Of a DNA stretch of 64,000 nt, positions 8,420-61,289 are shown piece by piece. Origin of the DNA: Aplysia californica (lineage: Eukaryota). The position numbers and the translations under genes are program-made. The notes under the pieces were generated by a model. It was not told the DNA's origin. It saw only the letters and a list, made by a program, of their open reading frames with translations, and ran no database searches. Location of the stretch: the NCBI RefSeq assembly GCF_000002075.1, contig NW_004798404.1, positions 94,493 to 158,492 of the forward strand, given 5' to 3'. The first letter of the stretch is position 1. Each line of letters starts with the position of its first letter.

Positions 8420-11400
8420 ACCTAAACAAATGGGTTACGGGGAAAGATCAGGGAAACATAGTTTTCTTCAGAGCCTCCGAGGAAAGGAATAAATGGAGAG
8501 CCGTGATCGCCGATGTCAGTCGCAGATCTGGCACTGGATGATGAGTGGCGTGCATCCCAAGCTGTTAGTCCACTTTGATCTGGCCAACCTCTATACTGCT
8601 TAAGACCGTTGTGCGTGAGCGAAAATTCACATCTTTCCCGAGGTGTCACCTGAGGTGTCACCTGCTACCCTTAACCGTGCGGTTCAGGAGCAGAACACAA
8701 CGAATCTTGAGGAGCAATACCTCAATAACAAACACCATAGTCCTTCGGCTCACCGTCTGCCAAAGGGACGCAAGACTATGGGTCAATCAGCCTTACACAA
8801 ATCCTAATCTCACGGTATACCTACGTGCTAATGGGATGAACGGCTACAGGGCTCATAAGTCGCTAACGTGGGCGTCAGGTAAGCGAGAGGGATGGCGCCA
8901 GGCGTATGGACATCCCCTGTCCCTTCCCATGTGTAGGACTCTGCCAGGGCGACAGTTAGAAAAACAAACATGAGTAAAAGTTATGAAAAGGAAACAGCAC
9001 AGGAGCGACAGAGAACGTGCTCCTTTGGCGACGCTTTCTCCTGAATCGTTACTGAGGACTGGGGGGGGGGGGGGGAGGAGAGGAAGGAGGAGAGGAAAGA
9101 GAGGAGGTGCCAGGAAAAGAAGGGCAGGGAAAAGAAAGAATCAGGGAAAAACAGACAGGCTCAAAATGAAAAACGTCTGCATTGGCTATTGGAATTGCCT
9201 CAGTAGAAGGAACAGAGGAAGAGTGCTGGAAACGCTCGCCTATGTCTCTGACCTCTTTTTTCTGCAGGAGACCAATGCTAAAACTTTGTCATGTCCTGGG
9301 TGCACGTCATAATATCAATATCAACCCAATGAGCCCAACTCATCTAGGATTAGCCACTGTGGTCAGGAATGGTATCCAGCACCGGGTAAGAGACGTCATT
9401 ACTTGGGACAAGGAGGACAGGGAGCTACAAGCACTTGAGCTAGTGATCCGCAACAGGTCATGGGTCATTGTTAATCTCTATGCCGGAGGGGGAAAACTTG
9501 TCCGTGAAGATGACTGGGAGTTTCGCCATTAGCTATTCGATCTTGGAGATGTTGTCCTGATCTTTGGGGACTTCAATGCCAGAAGCTCGACCTGGGGCAA
9601 TGTCAACGAAAATGGTCAGGGAAACGCTTTGGATAGCAAGTTGATTGAAAGTGATCTCCACATCCTCAACATTTCCACCATGAGAAGACTATCTCAAAGA
9701 AATGGTGAACAGGACTCCAACGGTGATCTGGCCCTGATCAAAACAGGTGGCGAAGCTTTTACACAATGGAGTGTACTGGCAGATCAAGGTAGCGAACTCC
9801 TACCATGCTCAGTTCTTATATCAAAGGGTGGAAAGACAGTGAGACAAAAGGTCAAGGGTGTTTAAGTACAAATCAGACACCTCGGTCTTGGGAGGCCTGA
9901 GAAAGAAGGCCTGGAACAGAAGACCCTCAAGATCTAACGTTACGCAGCCACCATGGTGGAGCAATGAAACTGACTGCCTGTGGAAAGAGAAGAGGAATGC
10001 TGCTAAGGACTGGCAAAGAAAGAGGAAGAAACCCAATGTCACAGAGGAAGAAAAGGAGGCAGCTAAAGAGCAGATGAGGCAGGCTCGAGAAATATAAGTT
10101 CAGAACTGAAACAAATCTGGCCAAAAAGACGAAGTGGGAAGAGTCTGTAAAAAATGTTGCAGCTGAGAAGATACTCTCAAAGTTCTGGAAGCTGCGAAAG
10201 AAGATGTGGGGACAGGGTCACACAAAAACCACATTGAATGTGAAGGACGAGTCAGGAAAGACACTCCAAACTGATGAGGAGAAAGGAATGGCTTTTTTTT
10301 GGCCGATTCATACATCAAACCCACCAGGGATATATTGACCCTAGAAAGGAAGTTGAAAGAGATGTTTCAAGTGTGCTGACATCAGAGATGTATGCAAGCT
10401 ATGGGGATGCGATTTGTAAAGAAGAGGCTTCCAGAACAATAAAATATGGCAAAGACGGCGCTGGAGGGCTGGATGGTGTAAGATATTGCCACACGAAAGA
10501 AGCAGACGACGAGATGATTGAAGAAATGAAAAAAGACTTCAACATGAGCGTTGGCATTGGCAAAATCCCTGAAGAATGGTTGCACAGCTGGTTGATACCA
10601 ATCCCCAAACCAGGAAAAGACCACTCGGCTCTCAGTCGTTACAGAATCATAGCCGTACAGAACACCTATGGGAAAATTCTTGAAAAGATAGTGCCGGACG
10701 AATATCAGCACACTTGGAGAAGAAATCTGGAAGCTTGGTGTTCCCTCGACTACAGGACTGTCCAAGACATAGCTCCACCAATCACTTGCAACTATGAGAT
10801 CGTCGACAGACAGTCAGAGCTCAAGTATCTGGGAATCGTCTTCGACAGGTCGTTGTCCTTCAACAAGCATGTGAATCATGTGGTAACAAAGGCCAAACGA
10901 GGTGTTGGTGCAATCAAGACCATGGCGGCCGCTCTGATTCCACAAAGAGTGCTCTTCCTGATGATGCAGCTGGTCGTCGTGTCTGTCATTGATTATTGAT
11001 TGGGATGTCTCAAGCTGCCCGACACGCAGATTGCTAAGCTTGATCGAGTGCAGAATGAGGCAATGAGAGAAGTGCTGGGCTGCACCAAGGACACTACAAT
11101 ATTGTGCATGCGCTACTTTCATGCGTGGCATCAAAGTGTGCCATAGGATAGCTCAAGCAAAGTTGTATCTTAGTGTAATGGGCAAGGAAGATCATCCACT
11201 GCACAAAGCACTTCACGACAACAACAAAAGGCAGCATCAAAAGAGGAAAGTATTGGATGGCAGAAGCAGAAGATTCTCCCAGAAGAGTCTGTGTACCTGA
11301 ACATGTACCACTTGGCGAAGAATGGGAACAGGTGGCAGGAGAATACAGGGACCTCACCAAGGTCAAAATAAGCATGGGCAGAGACAGAAGAAATGTTGCG

Positions 11401-12010
11401 GCTGCCATCAACGAGAGCGATGTCTACGAGATTGTTTACAAAGAACTCAAAAGCAGGGGATCCTGTAATTTATACGGTTGGCCCAGTGAAAAGAAATAGC
11501 CAGCGAAGAGGATAGGGATTTGTTGTATTCGCCAACAATAAAATCATCCACAGTGCATCTGGAGCCTGCAGCAGGACTAAATCAAGTATGCGAAAGGAAA
11601 TTGAAGCCAGCACGAAAGTACGCTCACATGGATTTTCTGCCCTGGCCATGCAGGCGTTAAAGGAAATGAAAAAAGCTGACAGACTGGATGGTGAGGCCAC
11701 CTCAGTAGACAGTACGGTTTATCCAGACAAGGTCGATATCCTGAAATGTCTCTCTCGCCACCTGGTTGAAGAGGAAGATAAGGAGGCAGAGGCCAGTACT
11801 GCTGTGGAGAGGATAATGGTTTTGGAAATACAGAAAGGATGTGGAAAATCTGGCACCCTTGCAGTAAAGTACAAAAGAACGTTCAACCAGATGTGCACTG
11901 GCACAATCAGTAGACAGACCATCAGCGGCATTTTGGAGAGAGCAGCGGAGCATCGATGGACTTGTCCGGAGTGCAAGGATGTTGCTTCCAGAAACAATGA
12001 ACAATGTACA
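8420..12010 (+). mobile_element. Degenerate LINE with APE endonuclease, internally deleted RT and RNase H (Ingi/I-group-like), copy A
   Basis: EN motifs IGYWNC, FFLQET, IFGDFNA; RT start GLDGV..IPEEW..PIPKPGKD..YRII; RT end LKYLGIVFDRSLSFNKHV; RNase H-like IYT(D)G.VK and SS.R.EIEA. Many stops and frameshifts. Lies in HOATZ-like intron 2. Confidence 0.85.
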
Positions 12011-12384
12011 TCTGACACTAGGCGACCTCCACCTCCTTCAATCACAGATATCTCAACTTCTAATCAACATAGATGTGTGTTTTTTCATTAAAAGCATGGG
12101 AAATGAATAGGCTTTAAGATTATATACAAAAAACCCTATATGCCAAAAAATTGACGAGCACCCGATTCCACCGCGTCATGACACTTATATTTATGTAGTA
12201 TGCTTCCCGGGAAGCTGAGAATGTTTCGGAGTGTTCTATGGTCTGCTGGGGTAATAATATAGTGTAAAGCGCATAGAGCCTGGTNNNNNNNNNNNNNNNN
12301 NNNNNNNNNNNNNNNNNNNNNNNNNNNNNNNNNNNNNNNNNNNNNNNNNNNNNNNNNNNNNNNNNNNNNNNNNNNNNNNNNNNN

Positions 12385-54504: not shown

Positions 54505-54985
54505 TAGACAGTTCAAAGGGAAGTTTGAATTATGTGCAACTACACCTTAATGGAAATTCATTCGGGTCCGTTCCTATTGGCTACTCGGGTGAGCTAAAAG
54601 AAGAATACAGGTACACAAAAAGTGTTGGGTAGATTTAAATACCCGAACCACAATTAAAGGATTTGTATTGATCTGAAAATATTCAACTCCTTACTTAACC
54701 AACAGAGTGTTTATACAATGTATACACGATCTCTTTGTCCGAGAGATAGTCAAAGGAAAAATAATGTTAAAAAATTGACCAGTAAGGACAGCTCTAACAG
54801 CAGTTGGAGGGAAGATTGTCATCAAAGAACCACTTTTGTTGAACGGGGAAAATGATCTTTCCTCCCTTTAAAATCAAATTAGTGTAGATGGAATTTGTGA
54901 AAGCCCTGGACTTTGGAATGAGGGGTGGGGTTCAAGAATATGTGTACATAATATGTCAGACCTAATGCACTCCAGACAATCCTGC
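54505..54985 (+). mobile_element. Chapaev3-like transposase fossil (paralogous to 22340-23060)
   Basis: DSSKGSLNYVQLHLNGNSFGSVPIGYSGELKEEY..ICIDLK, plus DNA similarity to 22340-22510 (GAACCACTT..TTTCCTCCCC..GAAAGCCCTGGACTTTGGAA). Confidence 0.65.
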
Positions 54986-55009
54986 TAGAACGCTCCTGTC
55001 ACGATGATA

Positions 55010-55336
55010 TTATGTGGTTAGGCTCTGGGACTCACAACCGTAAGGTCGTGTGTTGGAATCTTGTCCTTGACCCGACGTTGTGTCCATGGGAAAGGCACTT
55101 AACATAAATTTTCCTCACTTCACTCAGGTGGGAATGGGTACCCAGCTATAGACAGCGAAAGATCTTGTCAGTTTGTTAGTGTTTGAGCGCTTAATCAGCT
55201 GCTTGCACTGTATGCTTCCCGGGAAGCTGAAAATGTTTCGGAGTGTTCTATGGTCTGCTGGGGTGATAATATTGTGTAAAGCGAATAGAGCCTGCTGTTG
55301 AGCGGGGATATGTGCTATACAAATGCTATTTATTAC

Positions 55337-55394
<58 letters not shown>
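55010..55394 (+). mobile_element. tRNA-head SINE with conserved core and (ATT)n tail
   Basis: GTGGTTAGG head, GTTGTGTCCATGGGAAAGGCACTT core, tail GCTATACAAATGCTATT(ATT)n. Body fragment also at ~12198-12284. Confidence 0.7.
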
Positions 55395-55745
55395 TAATAC
55401 GTTCCCCCCAACTTTTGTACACACTCATTTATTTCTAAATGTTGTAGGCTACCCATTACTACTGTGAGATTGAGGATTGGCATGATTTATACAAATGAAA
55501 AGAAAACGTTTTGGTGTCTCACTTTTCGTTGTTTTTTTTTCGTTCCTCTGAATACGATTGACATTTGTTATTATTATAACTAATTCAATTTTGTAAAAAG
55601 CACACATAGTGGTTATGCCATAAAACAAAAGATTGACGTGATTGAGCAAAACTCATGTCAGTTTTCGTTACCCAGTGTTATCTGACCTGATCTTAAAAGT
55701 ATTGCTATTTCTTCGTTCATGATCAAAATGAACATATCTTTCCGT

Positions 55746-56578
55746 TTAGGTGAAAAGTAATTTTTCTTGTTTGTTCAAGAATGTTTTCATAAACACTGCT
55801 CGGTATTTTGAACTCATTTTCAGATACACAAAGATGTTCACGCTGGAGTTGACTGTTTCTGTTAGATATGATGAAGACCAAACGGCAAGATAGAGATTTC
55901 GATAGACACCATCAATACGGAAATCTTGGTCAAACAACATATAGAAAAATAGGAGCGATGGAGGTACGGCACAGACGATGAAAATGACAGCGATGAGAGT
56001 CACCATCTTGACAACCTTCCGGTCTTTGACCCCAACTCCTTCCGCTGCACGATCAGACTTGGCTGCAGTGGCCTGCCGCCATTTTATTTTACTGCTGAGT
56101 TTGATGACAATAACGACAGTGCAACAGAAGACGAATATGAAAGGAAATGTCGTAGCAAATACGCCTTGGGTTAAATTCGTAATGGCTTCTAGCATTTTTC
56201 TCTCGGCTGTGTAGGTCGTTTTTAGAACCGTAGCATTCCTGGTGAAATCAAAAACCCATTCAAGTCTGTTTCCAAGGCAGAACAGGATAAGCAAAACAAC
56301 CATGGCAACGTAGATAGAGATAATAATTGTCTTTGTCCTTTCCGGTGTGATGATCGTCTTCACCTTCAGAGGGACAGCGATACACAGACATCGTTCAAAG
56401 GTGATGAAGGCGGTGATAAATGTGGCAATTTTGATAAAGAGGTAATGAGGCGCAGATCCCGTGAGGTACTAGATATCCCTGGGGTCAAAACGCAAATCAG
56501 AGAGGTAGAAAAGCGGGTTCATGCATATACTTATCCATATCATGGTCAGCAGGGAGCACAGGTCAGACACAGCCAGCC
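55746..56578 (-). pseudogene. Chemosensory-type GPCR 3, exon 2, with a single in-frame TAG (56469-56471)
   Basis: Acceptor TCATTCCAG|GG. Reads LAVSDLCSLLTMIWISICMNPLFYLSDLRFDPRDI*YLTGSAPHYLFIKIATFITAFITFERC... with no other lesion to TAA at 55746. Confidence 0.85.
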
Positions 56579-58119
56579 CTGGAATGACAAACAGTTTATG
56601 AGGTGGGACAATGCAACAATACATTATTTATTATGTACTTAGAAGCTATTGGAGGTCATTTCTGAATCTGTTATTAATACTTTGTCTTCAACCTATCTGA
56701 TGCTGTTAATATTTCGGCCTTTCTCTTTAAAACCTGACCATTTTTCTTTATTTCTAATGATTTTTTTTACAGAATGTGTTAAAGAGGTCTGGTGACACAA
56801 TACATCCTTGCCTCACTCCTCTTTCTATCTGATTATATTCGTTGTATTCTTCATTAATTCTTACAGCAATGTTTTGGTCCTAATACAAATTCCTGATAAT
56901 TCTTTGATCTTTACTATCTATATCTAGCTCTTTTAATGTCTTAAATAACTCATTACGTCTGACTTTATGACAAGCCTTTGTATAATCTGTGAAGCATAGA
57001 CGGATCTACACATCGTTCTGTGCTTCAATACGAATTTTCATTAACATTGTTAAGGTGAATATATGGCATTTCTGGTGCCCTTCTCAGGTATAAATCTAAA
57101 TTATGTTTTAGATATACGTGAAACGTGCTGACAATACAATTACTTCTTGGATTCGAGCCATATGGAAATAGATACACCACGCTTATAAGTTTCTAAAGAT
57201 ACATAAGTAAGAAATAATAACAGGCATATTATTTATTACACTTAAAGAATATGGCATCAATAGAAAATCTACAATTTGACTCAAGTGTTGAATTTTTTTT
57301 TCTCCAATATCTCTTTTGTGGATTGCGAGAAGCAACTCATTTTGTCAGCTCGCCTCACATATCTTTTTTTTCAGATAGGTGTTTTACGGCGTGCACAACT
57401 GCAGGACACATCAAACCTTGTTTTTAGTTGGTAGGAAATTTTGGCCGAAACCTACTCTTACTGATTTTAGACCACCAAGCGTTCTTTAAAGTGCGCAACT
57501 TGCACACAGGCCCTCCGAGATTTTTCGCACTTGTCCGAGAAGGCTAGGTGTAGATCTTTTCTACCAGAAGATCAGGGGTATGGCGGAAAGACGGCAGTAA
57601 GAATGAGCCAAGGAGTAGCAGTAGAAAGGCTGCAAAAAGAGTCAGGAGCCCAAAGGAGGGGGCAAAGGAGGTGAGGGGGTGGGGGCAGAAAGAGGAGACA
57701 AAAGCAGACGACAGAACATTGCTAGAGAGCAGGAAATAAGGTGAAAACAGACAATTTTAGAGAAGAAAATTTTTCGGTCTCAGCCCGGATTCAAACCTGT
57801 ACTGGGACCTTTGAATGAGAGGTCAACACCTGAACCTCTAGGCCAACAGAGCAAGTTTGTTGTTTTGTGTTTAAACACCATAATATCCTGAAGTCAAATT
57901 ACACGCCCTTTAATTCCTTATTACTTTTTTGGTAACCCGCTTTTGTGGTGCAGTGGTTAGACGTTGTGCTGTCGCACGTAGAAGATACGAGATTGATTCA
58001 AGAGTGGGAACGATTTTTAAAAAAATCAAATATATTCGTCTTCTCGACGCTGTATCCTTTTCAGCCAGGGTTGCCCTACAGAAGCAGGGCCGTAGGGACC
58101 CGCCTCCTAAGTAACCTAG

Positions 58120-59080
58120 ATGCCAGGCATCGTTGTGAAATCAGGTGCCGGCAAAGTAATGATATAGAAAAAAACGAGCATTTTTCTGTCCGTTTAGCAA
58201 ATTCTATATATTTTTGTGTTTGTTTTTTTACTCAACGCCTTTAACCCACTTAAGCATATTCCCGAGTATAAAGGGGACACGCGGCCGGCCTGGTGTTCTA
58301 TTCTGTGTATTTGCGGAATGGACTTTATCGAACAATGTTTCTGTTGTTTTTCGGTTACAAGCTACAGGAAGCGCCGAACCAACAGTCGACCCACTAGTTT
58401 CGTTTCGTTAAAGATTTGATTAGGTTATATATGTGTGATACTTTTTTGAGCAGTTATGAACTAAGTTAGTCGCCCTCGTATTACGAAAGATGATTTTGTT
58501 GCAAATTGGACACACACAAAAAAAAATAATTTAAAAATGCGTAACCCCCAGACATTTCAAAATAATGATACAATAAAGACAATTGGGACAAATCAGATGC
58601 AGTTTTCTTTTTCTGTTAGAGCATTTCTTTCTTTCTTTTCTTGCAATAAAAATGATAGCTTTCTCAGTCTTTTTATGCTTATCAATTCAATATAAAAAAA
58701 AGAAACAAGCGTCAGGCTGCAATTGTTTTTGGGTGAAAAAAAGTTCAGGCTCAAGTGACTGAAGGTCTATTTAAAAACACATTTCTGTGTGGATTATACA
58801 GAAGAATGTTGATTTAAGGTATAACATTGTAAATTTGCAGCTTCTAAGGACTCTCAAGCTTAGGAATTCGCTAAACTTTGGCGACCATTTTTTCACTAAT
58901 TTTACCTCTGAAACCAGACGGTCCTGCCCTCATTTAATTTCAAATATTTTGACTTCTATTCAGCTTAGATGGATATTTTTCTCACAAAAAGAAAGGCAAA
59001 TAAACAGGCTTTAAGGTGATACCAATAACGATATATGTCCAAAAATTTACGAGCCCCTGATTCCACAACGTTGTGACTCA
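58120..59080. mobile_element. MITE family A copy interrupted by a ~500-bp insertion
   Basis: Left arm GTGAAATCAGGTGCCGGCAAA near 58135; body resumes at ~58770; ends ACGAGCCCCTGATTCCACAACGTTGTGACTCA. Confidence 0.55.
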
Positions 59081-60096
59081 AATAATGGCGATGACGGCGT
59101 AAAGTATTTACAATTATATTTCTTTTTTTGTGTGACTTTTTGAAACATGATGCGTATTTCGTCATAAATCCCATTGAATATTCTCTGTTAGGACAGAGTT
59201 GACGTTTATAATAAAAACTGAGAAATGGAGATACCTACAGTACCACGGGTTCTTTTTGTTAGAAATGTTTTGAAAAGGATTATTTATCGCGTTCTGCTCA
59301 CTTGGTCTTTCAGAAAAGTCTTGGATTAGCGATTTGGGTCACTCAGTGTCATATTTTCCTGTTAGAATGCAGTAGTAGCCCTTTTAACGTTTAGACAAAG
59401 GCGTGAATTGGCGGATTTCATAATAATAAATAGGGAAAATCGGGAACCTAAATTGCTCATGAAAAAATGGCATACTTCATTCGCCTGTAGTAAGCTACAT
59501 CGGTGGAAAAAGTATCGTCGGCGAGTTATTTAGATGTACCAAGTCCACTTTAAAAATATTTTTTTTTTCACATTCCATTTTCTTATTCTGTGCAATCGGC
59601 AGCTTGCGCACAAGAAATATTTAGTTGAAATCCAAATTGTAAATGTTGAAAGCTTTTTGATAAAGGCACATAGACGTACACGTACATTTTTTAATTGGAA
59701 CAGTTTTTTCACTCTCGTCTGTGAAATAAGTTTTTAAAATGATTCCTGGTCTTACAACTGTTGAAAAGATTGTTGAAGGTACAATGAATGTGATGGGTGC
59801 TATATTTCATCATTATTCAATCATTTGTGAGGGTTATATTCTTTTCCATGACTGTTGTAAAAGCACAGTAGTTGTCAGTAACTGTAGATGAGATACTTGC
59901 CATCTTACGTATGTGGGTTATGTTCTATTCCAGTAGTGTAAAATAGTCACATAATTAGCTGTAAGCAANNNNNNNNNNNNNNNNNNNNNNNNNNNNNNNN
60001 NNNNNNNNNNNNNNNNNNNNNNNNNNNNNNNNNNNNNNNNNNNNNNNNNNNNNNNNNNNNNNNNNNNNATTGTCGGTGTGATAATTGCCATCTCAC

Positions 60097-60385
60097 CCAT
60101 GAGGCTGATGTTCATGCTGTCCTGAAAGCCTTGCTTGGCAAACACCACAATATTGATGATGTTGGAGGCCACGCCGAACAGACTGAGGAGACCAGAGATG
60201 ACCACCAAGTTGACCACTTGGACAATGTACCACTGCTCGTCGCTAACGATTTTTACATAATGTAACTCAAGTGATGAGGTCGTTCTTGCCAAATTAACGC
60301 TCTCATTGCGGGAATAAGTTGAATTCGTCACCCACAATAATAAATTTGAAATCGGCATTCTGGGTGGGAGAGATGTGTGGGACAT
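60097..60385 (-). CDS. Chemosensory-type GPCR 3, exon 1 (open)
   Basis: ATG at 60385 (MSHTSLPPRMPISNLLLWVTNSTYSRNES...), donor ATG G|GTGAGAT, 289 nt. Confidence 0.85.
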
Positions 60386-60427
60386 CGACAACAAAGTTAC
60401 TATAGCGCTAAGCCCCTCTCCTGTTTC

Positions 60428-60640
60428 AGACAAAAATCTTGATTTATAAGCTCAGTACAAAGGCTTAACCAAAGACAAAAATCTTGATTTATAAACTCTA
60501 AACTATAAGTACAAAGGCTTAATCAAAGACAAAAATCTTGATTTATAAACTCTAAACTATAAGTACAAAGGCTTAATCAAAGACAAAAATCTTGATTTAT
60601 AAACTCTAAACTATAAGTACAAAGGCTTAATCAAGGACAA
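60428..60640 (-). promoter_or_regulatory. GPCR3 core promoter with 54-bp tandem repeat (3 full units + proximal shorter unit), each with TATAAA and CCTTTGTAC
   Basis: Unit CAAAGACAAAAATCTTGATTTATAAACTCTAAACTATAAGTACAAAGGCTTAAT starts at 60470, 60524 and 60578. Proximal TATA at 60443-60448. Confidence 0.75.
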
Positions 60641-61289
60641 AAAGCACAATAGTTAAACATCGTTCTTGCCTTGTGTTCATGGAAAGTTCTTAAACATTGT
60701 AACAGCTATTTAAGTACAGATGACGATTGTACTACTAACGTTGTATCACAAGAATTCATTAATTGTTGTAATAGCATCTATGTTATATAATTAGATTGAA
60801 TGAGATTGGCAATTTTCCCCCTTTAGCGCATTTGAAATTGTTTTTAAAAAAGCTGAGCGTCAGAGCTGAAAGTCTATTGCAACGATTATTTTTAACCATT
60901 TGAGAAAACATTCGGCACAGAATTTAAAATATCCAAAGCCACAGATATACTGAATGACAGCAATGAAAGTCTATTACAACGATTATTTTAACTAAAAGTA
61001 AACATTCGGCACGTAATTATAAAGATATACATGTCACAGTCCAATAAGTGCCAATATCGACCCTCAAAATGGGTAAACGGTTTCGTTTATCAGACTCAAA
61101 ATACAACTCTTTGTGGCGTCTGGTTATGTCCCCATGGGTTCATTACCGTAGCTGTTTTTTATTTTTTAAATGTAGAGTATGGTTGACTTTTAGAAACTCG
61201 TAGTCGGGTGCGCTAAATGGTTTGTCAATAAGTCGACCCACATTAGTGCATTTTATAGTGAATTATTTGAGATCCCCTTATCATTATAT

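What the first reader, a model, noticed from the sequence alone, without database searches (positions are those of the whole stretch)
56469..56471. GPCR3 has a single premature TAG in an otherwise intact gene: young pseudogene, null allele or readthrough 'pseudo-pseudogene'
Seen: codon 133 (extracellular loop 1, DPRDI*YLTG; ATG in both paralogs) is TAG, while splice sites, TATA, all TM motifs and the remaining ~240 codons are intact (373 aa if read through). The stop is in the last coding exon, so junction-dependent NMD would not be expected unless a 3' UTR intron exists. Established: a chemoreceptor with a premature stop can be functional through neuronal readthrough (Drosophila sechellia Ir75a), and A-to-I editing converts UAG to a Trp codon. 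Against: the TAG-T context is not a classic leaky one, and recent loss or a base error is the simpler explanation.
Basis: partly seen in the sequence, partly recalled or inferred. Interest (0 to 1): 0.7.

Follow-up and report, generated by a model that had tools for sequence, protein, structure and literature searches.

The report
Null allele of sea-hare chemoreceptor duplicate
A putative chemosensory receptor gene of the sea hare Aplysia carries an early stop codon that is also present in raw sequence data, but four other samples show a normal codon there, so it is likely an ordinary broken allele of a recently duplicated gene rather than a gene rescued by stop-codon readthrough.

Summary
The TAG at 56471-56469 (minus strand, codon 133; 373 aa if read through) is there. 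The gene (G3) is an Aplysia californica AcCRa-type rhodopsin-class candidate chemoreceptor. It has an intact inverted twin (G4, 94% identical in exon 2, ATG at codon 133) just outside the window. One read-derived 806-base contig matches the TAG haplotype exactly (run X1). In 4 of 4 runs laid on the site (four samples, two studies), no contig has TAG, and G3-type contigs carry CTG or ATG, so the stop is a segregating allele. The gene is not otherwise pristine: it changes 4 residues invariant in 35 intact paralogs (about 0.5 expected, P 0.001-0.002) and has lost the family's terminal stop. Its branch dN/dS (0.42-0.46) is inconclusive. Two other family copies also have a single internal stop (4 of 40 scorable copies are broken). 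There is no RNA structure at the TAG, no Trp at this site in homologs, no leaky context and no frame-restoring splice site. Verdict: most likely a young null allele of a redundant duplicate. Readthrough is untested but unsupported (about 5%).

The parts
56469..56471 (-). Premature TAG, codon 133 of G3 (first turn of predicted TM3); CTG or ATG on G3-type contigs of other samples
   Evidence: (X1 contig, 0 differences)
60097..60385 (-). G3 exon 1 (ATG to the ISLM/G phase-1 donor); 288 of 289 bases identical to the twin G4
56579..60096 (-). G3 intron, GT..AG, 3518 bases, holding a 100-N stretch at 59969-60068; about 89% identical to the G4 intron
55746..56578 (-). G3 exon 2 (TM2-TM7, helix 8), ending in TAA at 55748-55746
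56284..56284 (-). P195L, at a Pro invariant in 35 intact paralogs and 38 of 38 aligned homologs; seen only in the assembly and X1, not in X2, X3 or X6 contigs
56086..56144 (-). S242P (56144), L253I (56111) and T261I (56086) in predicted TM5, at sites invariant in 35 intact paralogs
55758..55760 (-). Codon 370, TTA in G3 where the twin has TGA and most paralogs end; adds 4 residues
60443..60643 (-). TATA-like hexamer (60448-60443) and a 54-base tandem repeat (60454-60643, 3.5 copies), each unit holding a TATAAA; fewer units in G4
55938..55938 (.). Site of a 4-base insertion (frameshift) in contigs of X2, X3 and X6; not in the assembly; belongs to a G3 or a G4 allele, not assigned
45977..50840 (-). 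Paralog G2, intact, 368 aa (exons 50840-50555 and 46797-45977), ATG at the site
23851..30233 (-). Paralog G1, intact, 368 aa (exons 30233-29948 and 24671-23851), ATG at the site

Best explanation
The TAG is a nonsense mutation found on one haplotype of G3, a recent inverted duplicate in the Aplysia AcCRa candidate-chemoreceptor family, while other samples carry CTG or ATG there, and it likely acts as a plain null allele. Ribosomes would stop after 132 residues, giving at most the N-terminus with TM1-TM2 and no working receptor (inferred). The loss would be tolerated because the twin G4 and about 35 close paralogs are intact (inferred). This is ordinary birth-and-death turnover of a chemoreceptor family caught as a segregating pseudogene. 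Shown: the stop, the twin, sense codons in other samples, and the excess of changes at invariant residues. Inferred: no full-length protein, and redundancy as the reason. The nearest observed allele (CTG) is two substitutions away, so the path ran through TTG or CAG, or was a double substitution (inferred).
For: (1) The stop is in raw-data contigs: X1 record 1, 806 bases, 55961-56766, 0 other letters, 0 gaps, depth 2.25. (2) It is not fixed: in 4 of 4 runs laid on 56400-56560 (X4, X6, X7, X8; samples S2-S5, two studies), all depth at 56470 reads A. X4 record 5 (87 bases, depth 20.7) differs from G3 only at 56470-56471 and reads CTG. X8 has a CTG type (24.2) and an ATG type (22.6) beside the G4 type (50.1), which is the depth pattern of a heterozygote at one locus next to a homozygous twin. 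No other fetched copy is closer than 11 differences in that stretch, and G4 differs at 5. (3) The intact twin G4 has 369 aa, ATG at 133, and branch dN/dS 0.10. (4) G3 has 4 changes at sites invariant in the 35 other intact paralogs, against 0.46-0.51 expected; Poisson P 0.0013-0.0018, the lowest of 39 tips. (5) Base rate: 4 of 40 scorable close copies have a broken exon 2, and 3 of these, G3 included, have one internal stop each, with different codons and positions. Broken Aplysia receptor genes are in print (PMC2700072, passages). (6) No rescue route is visible: fold z +0.76, 154 of 200 shuffles fold as well; none of 24 inverted repeats has an arm at the stop; the first in-frame AG after the stop is at 56206 and would delete TM2-TM4.
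Against: The G3 branch dN/dS is 0.42-0.46. It is not different from the family background of 0.37-0.39 (P 0.80) and only borderline below 1 (P 0.077). Polarised counts are 9 nonsynonymous: 9 synonymous on G3 against 3: 10 on G4, Fisher P 0.16, with 4 ambiguous sites left out. So long-standing neutrality is not shown, and the downstream 240 codons look mostly constrained; a young null predicts this, but so does readthrough. The invariant-site P value is about 0.05-0.07 after correcting for 39 tips, and one intact copy (L072) also has 4 hits. S242P would sit at the class A position 5.50, where Pro is canonical (recalled numbering), so it need not be harmful. The TAG rests on one low-depth contig whose independence from the assembly is unknown. 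Contigs drop alleles, so the absence of TAG in X4 and X6-X8 is not proof. No expression or protein data were obtained.
Confidence: 0.83

Rival explanations
1. Pseudo-pseudogene: the TAG allele is read through in chemosensory neurons by near-cognate tRNA (Gln, Tyr or Lys inserted) and makes enough 373-aa receptor to function.
For: The frame is open for 240 codons after the stop, and splice sites and TATA are present. Downstream dN/dS is 0.42-0.46, at family background. The site is variable, with Gln in 9 of 38 homologs and Lys in 1 of 43 genomic copies; Gln, Tyr and Lys are inserted at UAG in yeast (PMC4150775, abstract). Fly neurons read through premature stops more than glia (PMC7244557, passages). 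Stop-bearing alleles in wild-caught D. melanogaster were functional (PMC5615767, passage), so polymorphism alone does not exclude it.
Against: The +4 base is U. In mammalian reporters UAG contexts leak 0.028-0.203%, and +4 C is the leaky one (PMC5829715, section 15). There is no structure around the stop. The haplotype bears P195L at a 38-of-38 invariant Pro and three more invariant-site changes. The intact twin removes the need for rescue. The stop is not shared by any paralog (1 of 43).
Confidence: 0.05
2. A-to-I editing of UAG to UIG (Trp) at 56470 restores the frame.
For: UAG is a favoured ADAR triplet (recalled).
Against: The stop is not in a stable duplex (z +0.76) and no inverted repeat pairs with it within 54700-60500. 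Trp occurs at this site in 0 of 38 homologs and 0 of 43 genomic copies. Aplysia is described as not showing extensive recoding (PMC8382921, passage).
Confidence: 0.01
3. The TAG is a sequencing or assembly artefact and G3 is intact.
For: All four runs laid on the site show only sense codons. The DNA runs of sample S2, which may be the assembly's source, show a G3-type contig with CTG. The only supporting contig has depth 2.25 and may come from the reads that built the assembly.
Against: An error would need two adjacent wrong bases. X1 matches the assembly at all 806 bases. S2 contigs differ from the assembly at several other G3 sites too (56234, 56284, one base at 56760), which indicates a second haplotype rather than one corrected codon. 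Two runs of S2 give different numbers of differences over nearly the same stretch (3 and 5), as expected for a heterozygote.
Confidence: 0.07
4. The CTG and ATG contigs come from a third near-identical copy missing from the assembly, and G3 is a dead copy whose presence varies between animals.
For: Contigs are short (63-121 bases) and unphased. G3 and G4 show a recent exchange of sequence around exon 1. Depth in X6 (36.1 against 58.1) is not a clean 1:1.
Against: The genome search found only G3 (100%) and G4 (96%) above 86% among 40 scored of 71 candidates. Depths in X7 (39.3 against 38.5) and X8 (24.2+22.6 against 50.1) fit two loci. A G3-identical intron contig is present in X6 (record 24). 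The functional conclusion, a dead copy, would be the same.
Confidence: 0.04

Closest known systems
Aplysia californica candidate chemoreceptor subfamily a (AcCRa; Cummins et al. 2009, PMC2700072)
   Same: Single intron at ISLM/GLAV, the ITAFITF, MVT, ET and NSSVNI motifs, size near 355-368 aa, clustered genes. The twin's exon 2 is 81% identical to 'Chemosensory receptor A' (P0017) and 100% identical to an annotated A. californica protein (P0002). The paper already notes stop-bearing genes and possible 'flatliners' with functional alleles elsewhere.
   Different: This allele has a stop at codon 133 and a 4-residue C-terminal extension. Here the sense alleles are actually seen in other samples. 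Expression and ligand were not tested.
Segregating chemoreceptor pseudogenes ('flatliners' of C. elegans as described in PMC2700072; segregating olfactory-receptor pseudogenes of mammals, seen only as a search listing, PMC12703715)
   Same: A stop allele coexists with sense alleles at one locus of a large, fast-turnover receptor family.
   Different: A gastropod example. The function of the sense alleles is not shown, and a 4-base frameshift allele of G3 or G4 also segregates.
Olfactory pseudo-pseudogenes (Drosophila sechellia Ir75a; D. melanogaster Ir31a, Or35a), seen through reviews PMC5615767 and PMC6125307 and PMC7244557; the original paper was not held
   Same: A single premature stop in a chemoreceptor gene with an open frame downstream.
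   Different: Different receptor class (class A GPCR, not IR or OR). No readthrough, expression or function is shown. An intact 94%-identical twin exists, and the haplotype carries extra changes at invariant residues.

Membership tests
AcCRa subfamily | Conserved intron between ISLM and GLAV | tested here: met
   definition in PMC2700072 passage
AcCRa subfamily | Motifs GLA/SV, ITAFITF, DRA/V, MVT, ET, NSSVNI and ERC at the end of TM3 | tested here: met
   all present in the read-through translation
AcCRa subfamily | 70-95% identity to subfamily members; rhodopsin-class 7TM fold | tested here: met
   73-94% to the top 38 genomic matches; Pfam 7tm_1 and Srw above cut-off; the twin's model matches class A peptide receptors
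AcCRa subfamily | Uninterrupted 7-TM reading frame (the paper's criterion for an intact gene) | tested here: not met
   TAG at codon 133 on this haplotype; the full frame of the CTG and ATG alleles was not seen
AcCRa subfamily | Expression in rhinophore or oral tentacle | not testable with these tools
   no run on record as RNA was listed
Segregating pseudogene (null allele) | Disabling mutation present in DNA | tested here: met
   assembly plus X1 contig with 0 differences over 806 bases, depth 2.25
Segregating pseudogene (null allele) | Sense alleles at the same locus in other individuals | tested here: met
   CTG in X4 and X8, ATG in X6, X7 and X8 on G3-type contigs; short unphased contigs
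Segregating pseudogene (null allele) | Relaxed selection on the disabled haplotype | tested here: inconclusive
   excess at invariant sites, P 0.001-0.002 uncorrected; branch dN/dS 0.42-0.46, P 0.80 against background and 0.077 against 1
Segregating pseudogene (null allele) | No functional protein from the allele | not testable with these tools
   needs ribosome profiling, proteomics or a receptor assay
Pseudo-pseudogene (readthrough-rescued chemoreceptor) | Premature stop with open frame downstream | tested here: met
Pseudo-pseudogene (readthrough-rescued chemoreceptor) | Measured translational readthrough in neurons and a functional full-length receptor | not testable with these tools
   no RNA, ribosome or protein data available
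Pseudo-pseudogene (readthrough-rescued chemoreceptor) | Leaky stop context or stimulatory RNA structure (supporting, not strictly defining) | tested here: not met
   UAG followed by U; fold z +0.76; +4 C is the leaky context in PMC5829715 section 15
Pseudo-pseudogene (readthrough-rescued chemoreceptor) | Downstream sequence kept under purifying selection after the stop arose | tested here: inconclusive
   dN/dS at background, but four invariant residues changed; their order relative to the stop is unknown
Editing-rescued stop (UAG to UIG) | Stop in double-stranded RNA and Trp tolerated at the site | tested here: not met

The most novel reading that the evidence does not exclude
The TAG haplotype is expressed in rhinophore neurons and read through with Gln (a residue found at this site in 9 of 38 homologs), giving a working receptor whose TM4-TM5 changes shift its specificity away from the twin. 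That would be a readthrough-rescued class A GPCR chemoreceptor in a mollusc, with natural TAG, CTG and ATG alleles as built-in controls. My search for Aplysia + chemosensory receptor + premature stop + readthrough found 0 papers (open-access library only).
Probability: 0.05. Interest if true: 0.7.

Novelty: new member of a known kind. Interest (0 to 1): 0.15.

Why it matters
As a null allele it matters little. It confirms for one Aplysia gene what Cummins et al. 2009 suspected: some receptor 'pseudogenes' in the reference genome have sense alleles in other animals, so repertoire counts from one assembly are haplotype-specific. It also shows a young inverted gene pair exchanging sequence while one member decays. 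If readthrough were shown, it would extend pseudo-pseudogenes from fly IRs and ORs to GPCR chemoreceptors of another phylum, in an animal with large accessible neurons.

Tried and rejected
No RNA holder was listed by the run search; this says nothing about expression. Alternative splicing around the stop was rejected: the AG of the TAG itself is out of frame, and 1 of 10 AG sites between the stop and 56200 is in frame (56206) but would remove TM2-TM4. RNA structure at the stop: none. Inverted repeats pairing with the stop: none of 24. A second assembled haplotype of G3: not found among 40 scored of 71 candidates. A protein record from G3: none among 51 hits of 149-476 residues, and the twin's cluster has one member. 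Earlier findings of this scan: two look-ups, nothing. The original pseudo-pseudogene paper was not held, so its stop context and details were not checked; searches returned 0 papers. Reconstructed ancestral states were not available, so the order of the stop and the other substitutions stays open. Rows dropped: 10 of 53 unique loci below 70% identity were not counted as close family; 3 of 43 close copies (L065, L066, L079) have N stretches and were left out of the broken/intact count; L067 was left out of the trees; 4 copies ending a few codons early (L005, L014, L023, L027) were counted as intact; the branch model used the 12 copies nearest to G4 out of 39. Only exon 2 was scored, and the genome search scored 140 of 996 candidates. 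Of 24 listed runs, 7 were laid (X1-X4, X6-X8). The supplement of PMC2700072 was not read; it may list this gene or its twin under an AcCRa number.

Full report
Observation. The window holds three two-exon 7TM genes on the minus strand. G1 and G2 are intact (368 aa each). G3 has exon 1 at 60385-60097 and exon 2 at 56578-55746. Codon 133 (56471-56469) is TAG, followed by 240 open codons; 373 aa if read through.

Identity. The read-through exon 2 matches Pfam 7tm_1 and 7TM_GPCR_Srw above cut-off. The window lies at G000:C1134:94493-158492. The closest genomic match is a 96%-identical copy on the opposite strand outside the window. This copy, G4, is an intact 369-aa gene with its start codon at C1134:167905, head to head with G3 and 13 kb away, and it has ATG at codon 133. 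Its exon 2 is 100% identical to an Aplysia californica protein record on a contig of the same length, and 81% identical to 'Chemosensory receptor A'. The ISLM/GLAV intron and listed motifs define subfamily AcCRa in PMC2700072 (passages read). That paper notes stop-bearing receptor genes in Aplysia and suggests some may have functional alleles elsewhere. A model of G4 (mean pLDDT 81.9) matches class A peptide receptors and places residue 133 in the first turn of TM3. Termination there would leave only TM1-TM2.

Is the stop real? Of four runs laid on 55600-56800, X1 gave one 806-base contig spanning the stop with no difference from the assembly, depth 2.25. Its independence from the assembly is unknown. 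An artefact would need two adjacent wrong bases. Contigs of sample S2 differ from the assembly at other G3 sites as well, which points to a second haplotype. I put an artefact at 7%.

Is it fixed? No. In 4 of 4 runs laid on 56400-56560 (four samples, two studies), all depth at 56470 is a sense letter. Each run shows the G4 type plus one or two other types. One is a CTG type: X4 record 5, differing from G3 only in the codon, and X8 record 27. The other is an ATG type with its own letters at 56490 and 56511 (X6, X7, X8). Among the other 42 fetched close copies, only G4 is within 10 differences of G3 in this stretch, so these are best read as G3 alleles. Depths in X8 (24.2 + 22.6 against 50.1) and X7 (39.3 against 38.5) fit that reading; X6 (36.1 against 58.1) fits less well. 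Contigs drop alleles, so S2 may still be TAG/CTG. A 4-base insertion behind 55938 appears in X2, X3 and X6 at low depth. It is a second frameshifting allele of G3 or G4 that I could not assign.

Is the rest intact? Not quite. G3 changes four residues invariant in the 35 other intact close paralogs: P195L, S242P, L253I and T261I. P195 and L253 are invariant in 38 of 38 aligned homologs, including Lymnaea and Physella proteins. Scaled to branch length, 0.46-0.51 such hits are expected. Poisson P is 0.0013-0.0018, the lowest of 39 tips, or about 0.05-0.07 after correction; one intact copy also has 4 hits. P195L is seen only in the assembly and X1. The X2 contig over 56056-56371 has only 3 differences, so it shares at least two of the other three changes, unless it is a mosaic of two haplotypes. 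G3 has also lost the family's terminal stop. Against the decay reading, the branch dN/dS of G3 is 0.42-0.46, not different from background 0.37-0.39 (P 0.80) and borderline against 1 (P 0.077). G4 is at 0.10 (P 0.03 against background). Polarised counts are 9:9 against 3:10, Fisher P 0.16. The branch was therefore mostly constrained for much of its history, as a young null allele predicts; the test cannot separate that from readthrough.

Base rate. Of 43 distinct close exon-2 copies fetched, 3 hold N stretches. Of the 40 scorable, 36 are intact and 4 are broken: G3 (TAG), L071 (TGA, exon-2 codon 107), L075 (TAA, codon 159) and L067 (frameshifts). Single stops in otherwise open copies thus occur in 3 of 40, with unrelated codons, places and contexts, as random decay predicts.

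Rescue routes. Editing: the 201 bases around the stop fold no better than shuffles (z +0.76), no inverted repeat pairs with it, Trp is never seen at the site, and Aplysia is described as lacking extensive recoding (PMC8382921, passages). Splicing: no useful in-frame acceptor. Readthrough: UAG followed by U; UAG contexts leak 0.028-0.203% in mammalian reporters, with +4 C the leaky one (PMC5829715, abstract and section 15). In favour of keeping it open: fly neurons read through more than glia (PMC7244557, passages); stop alleles from wild flies were functional (PMC5615767 and PMC6125307, passages); and Gln, inserted at UAG in yeast (PMC4150775, abstract), occupies this site in 9 of 38 homologs. 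PMC13192750 (abstract) ties Gln readthrough to Gln codons flanking the stop; the flanking codons here are Ile and Tyr. PMC11886862 (passages) counts 547 lineage-specific class A GPCRs in Aplysia, so this is one of a very large family.

Verdict. A real, segregating nonsense allele in a recently duplicated AcCRa gene with an intact twin, most likely a null (0.83). New member of a known kind; interest 0.15. The readthrough reading is not excluded (0.05) and would deserve about 0.7 if shown.

Noticed in passing
window 60070-60600 against G000:C1134:167700-168221 (L031): G3 and its inverted twin differ at 3 of 457 aligned bases over the promoter-proximal region and exon 1, against 3-15 per 100 upstream and 4-22 per 200 in the intron. 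This looks like a recent gene-conversion tract between inverted copies; a local assembly collapse beside the 100-N stretch is not excluded.
   Followed up: partly
window 60454-60643: 54-base tandem repeat (3.5 copies) whose unit holds the TATA-like hexamer; G4 has fewer units and G1 and G2 have a single TATA. It may alter start-site choice or expression.
   Followed up: partly
window 55938 (contigs of X2, X3, X6): 4-base insertion causing a frameshift before TM7 in a G3 or G4 allele, in two samples from two studies; absent from the assembly.
   Followed up: partly
L071 (C1098:63799-64626), L075 (C42:315944-316747), L067 (C1098:128205-128591): Other AcCRa copies with one internal stop (TGA; TAA followed by C) or several frameshifts. 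L075 has the more leak-prone +4 C.
   Followed up: partly
G4 = L002 / C1134:167905-172427: The intact twin itself has changes at well-conserved sites (R273L in the DRA motif, T304P, V294A) despite low branch dN/dS. Letter G at window-equivalent 55958 (T304P) was seen in X6 but not in X2 or X3 contigs.
   Followed up: no
window 8900-15800, 26700-28600, 31100-33600: Several decayed reverse-transcriptase and endonuclease-like (LINE-type) fragments between and beside the receptor genes, with near-duplicated blocks at 32320-32826 and 33207-33587 flanking a 100-N stretch (family assignment recalled, not tested).
   Followed up: no
protein records: Database names for these AcCRa proteins are misleading ('adenosine receptor A1-like', 'thyrotropin-releasing hormone receptor-like'), and several records lack exon 1 or start at a later Met.
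   Followed up: no
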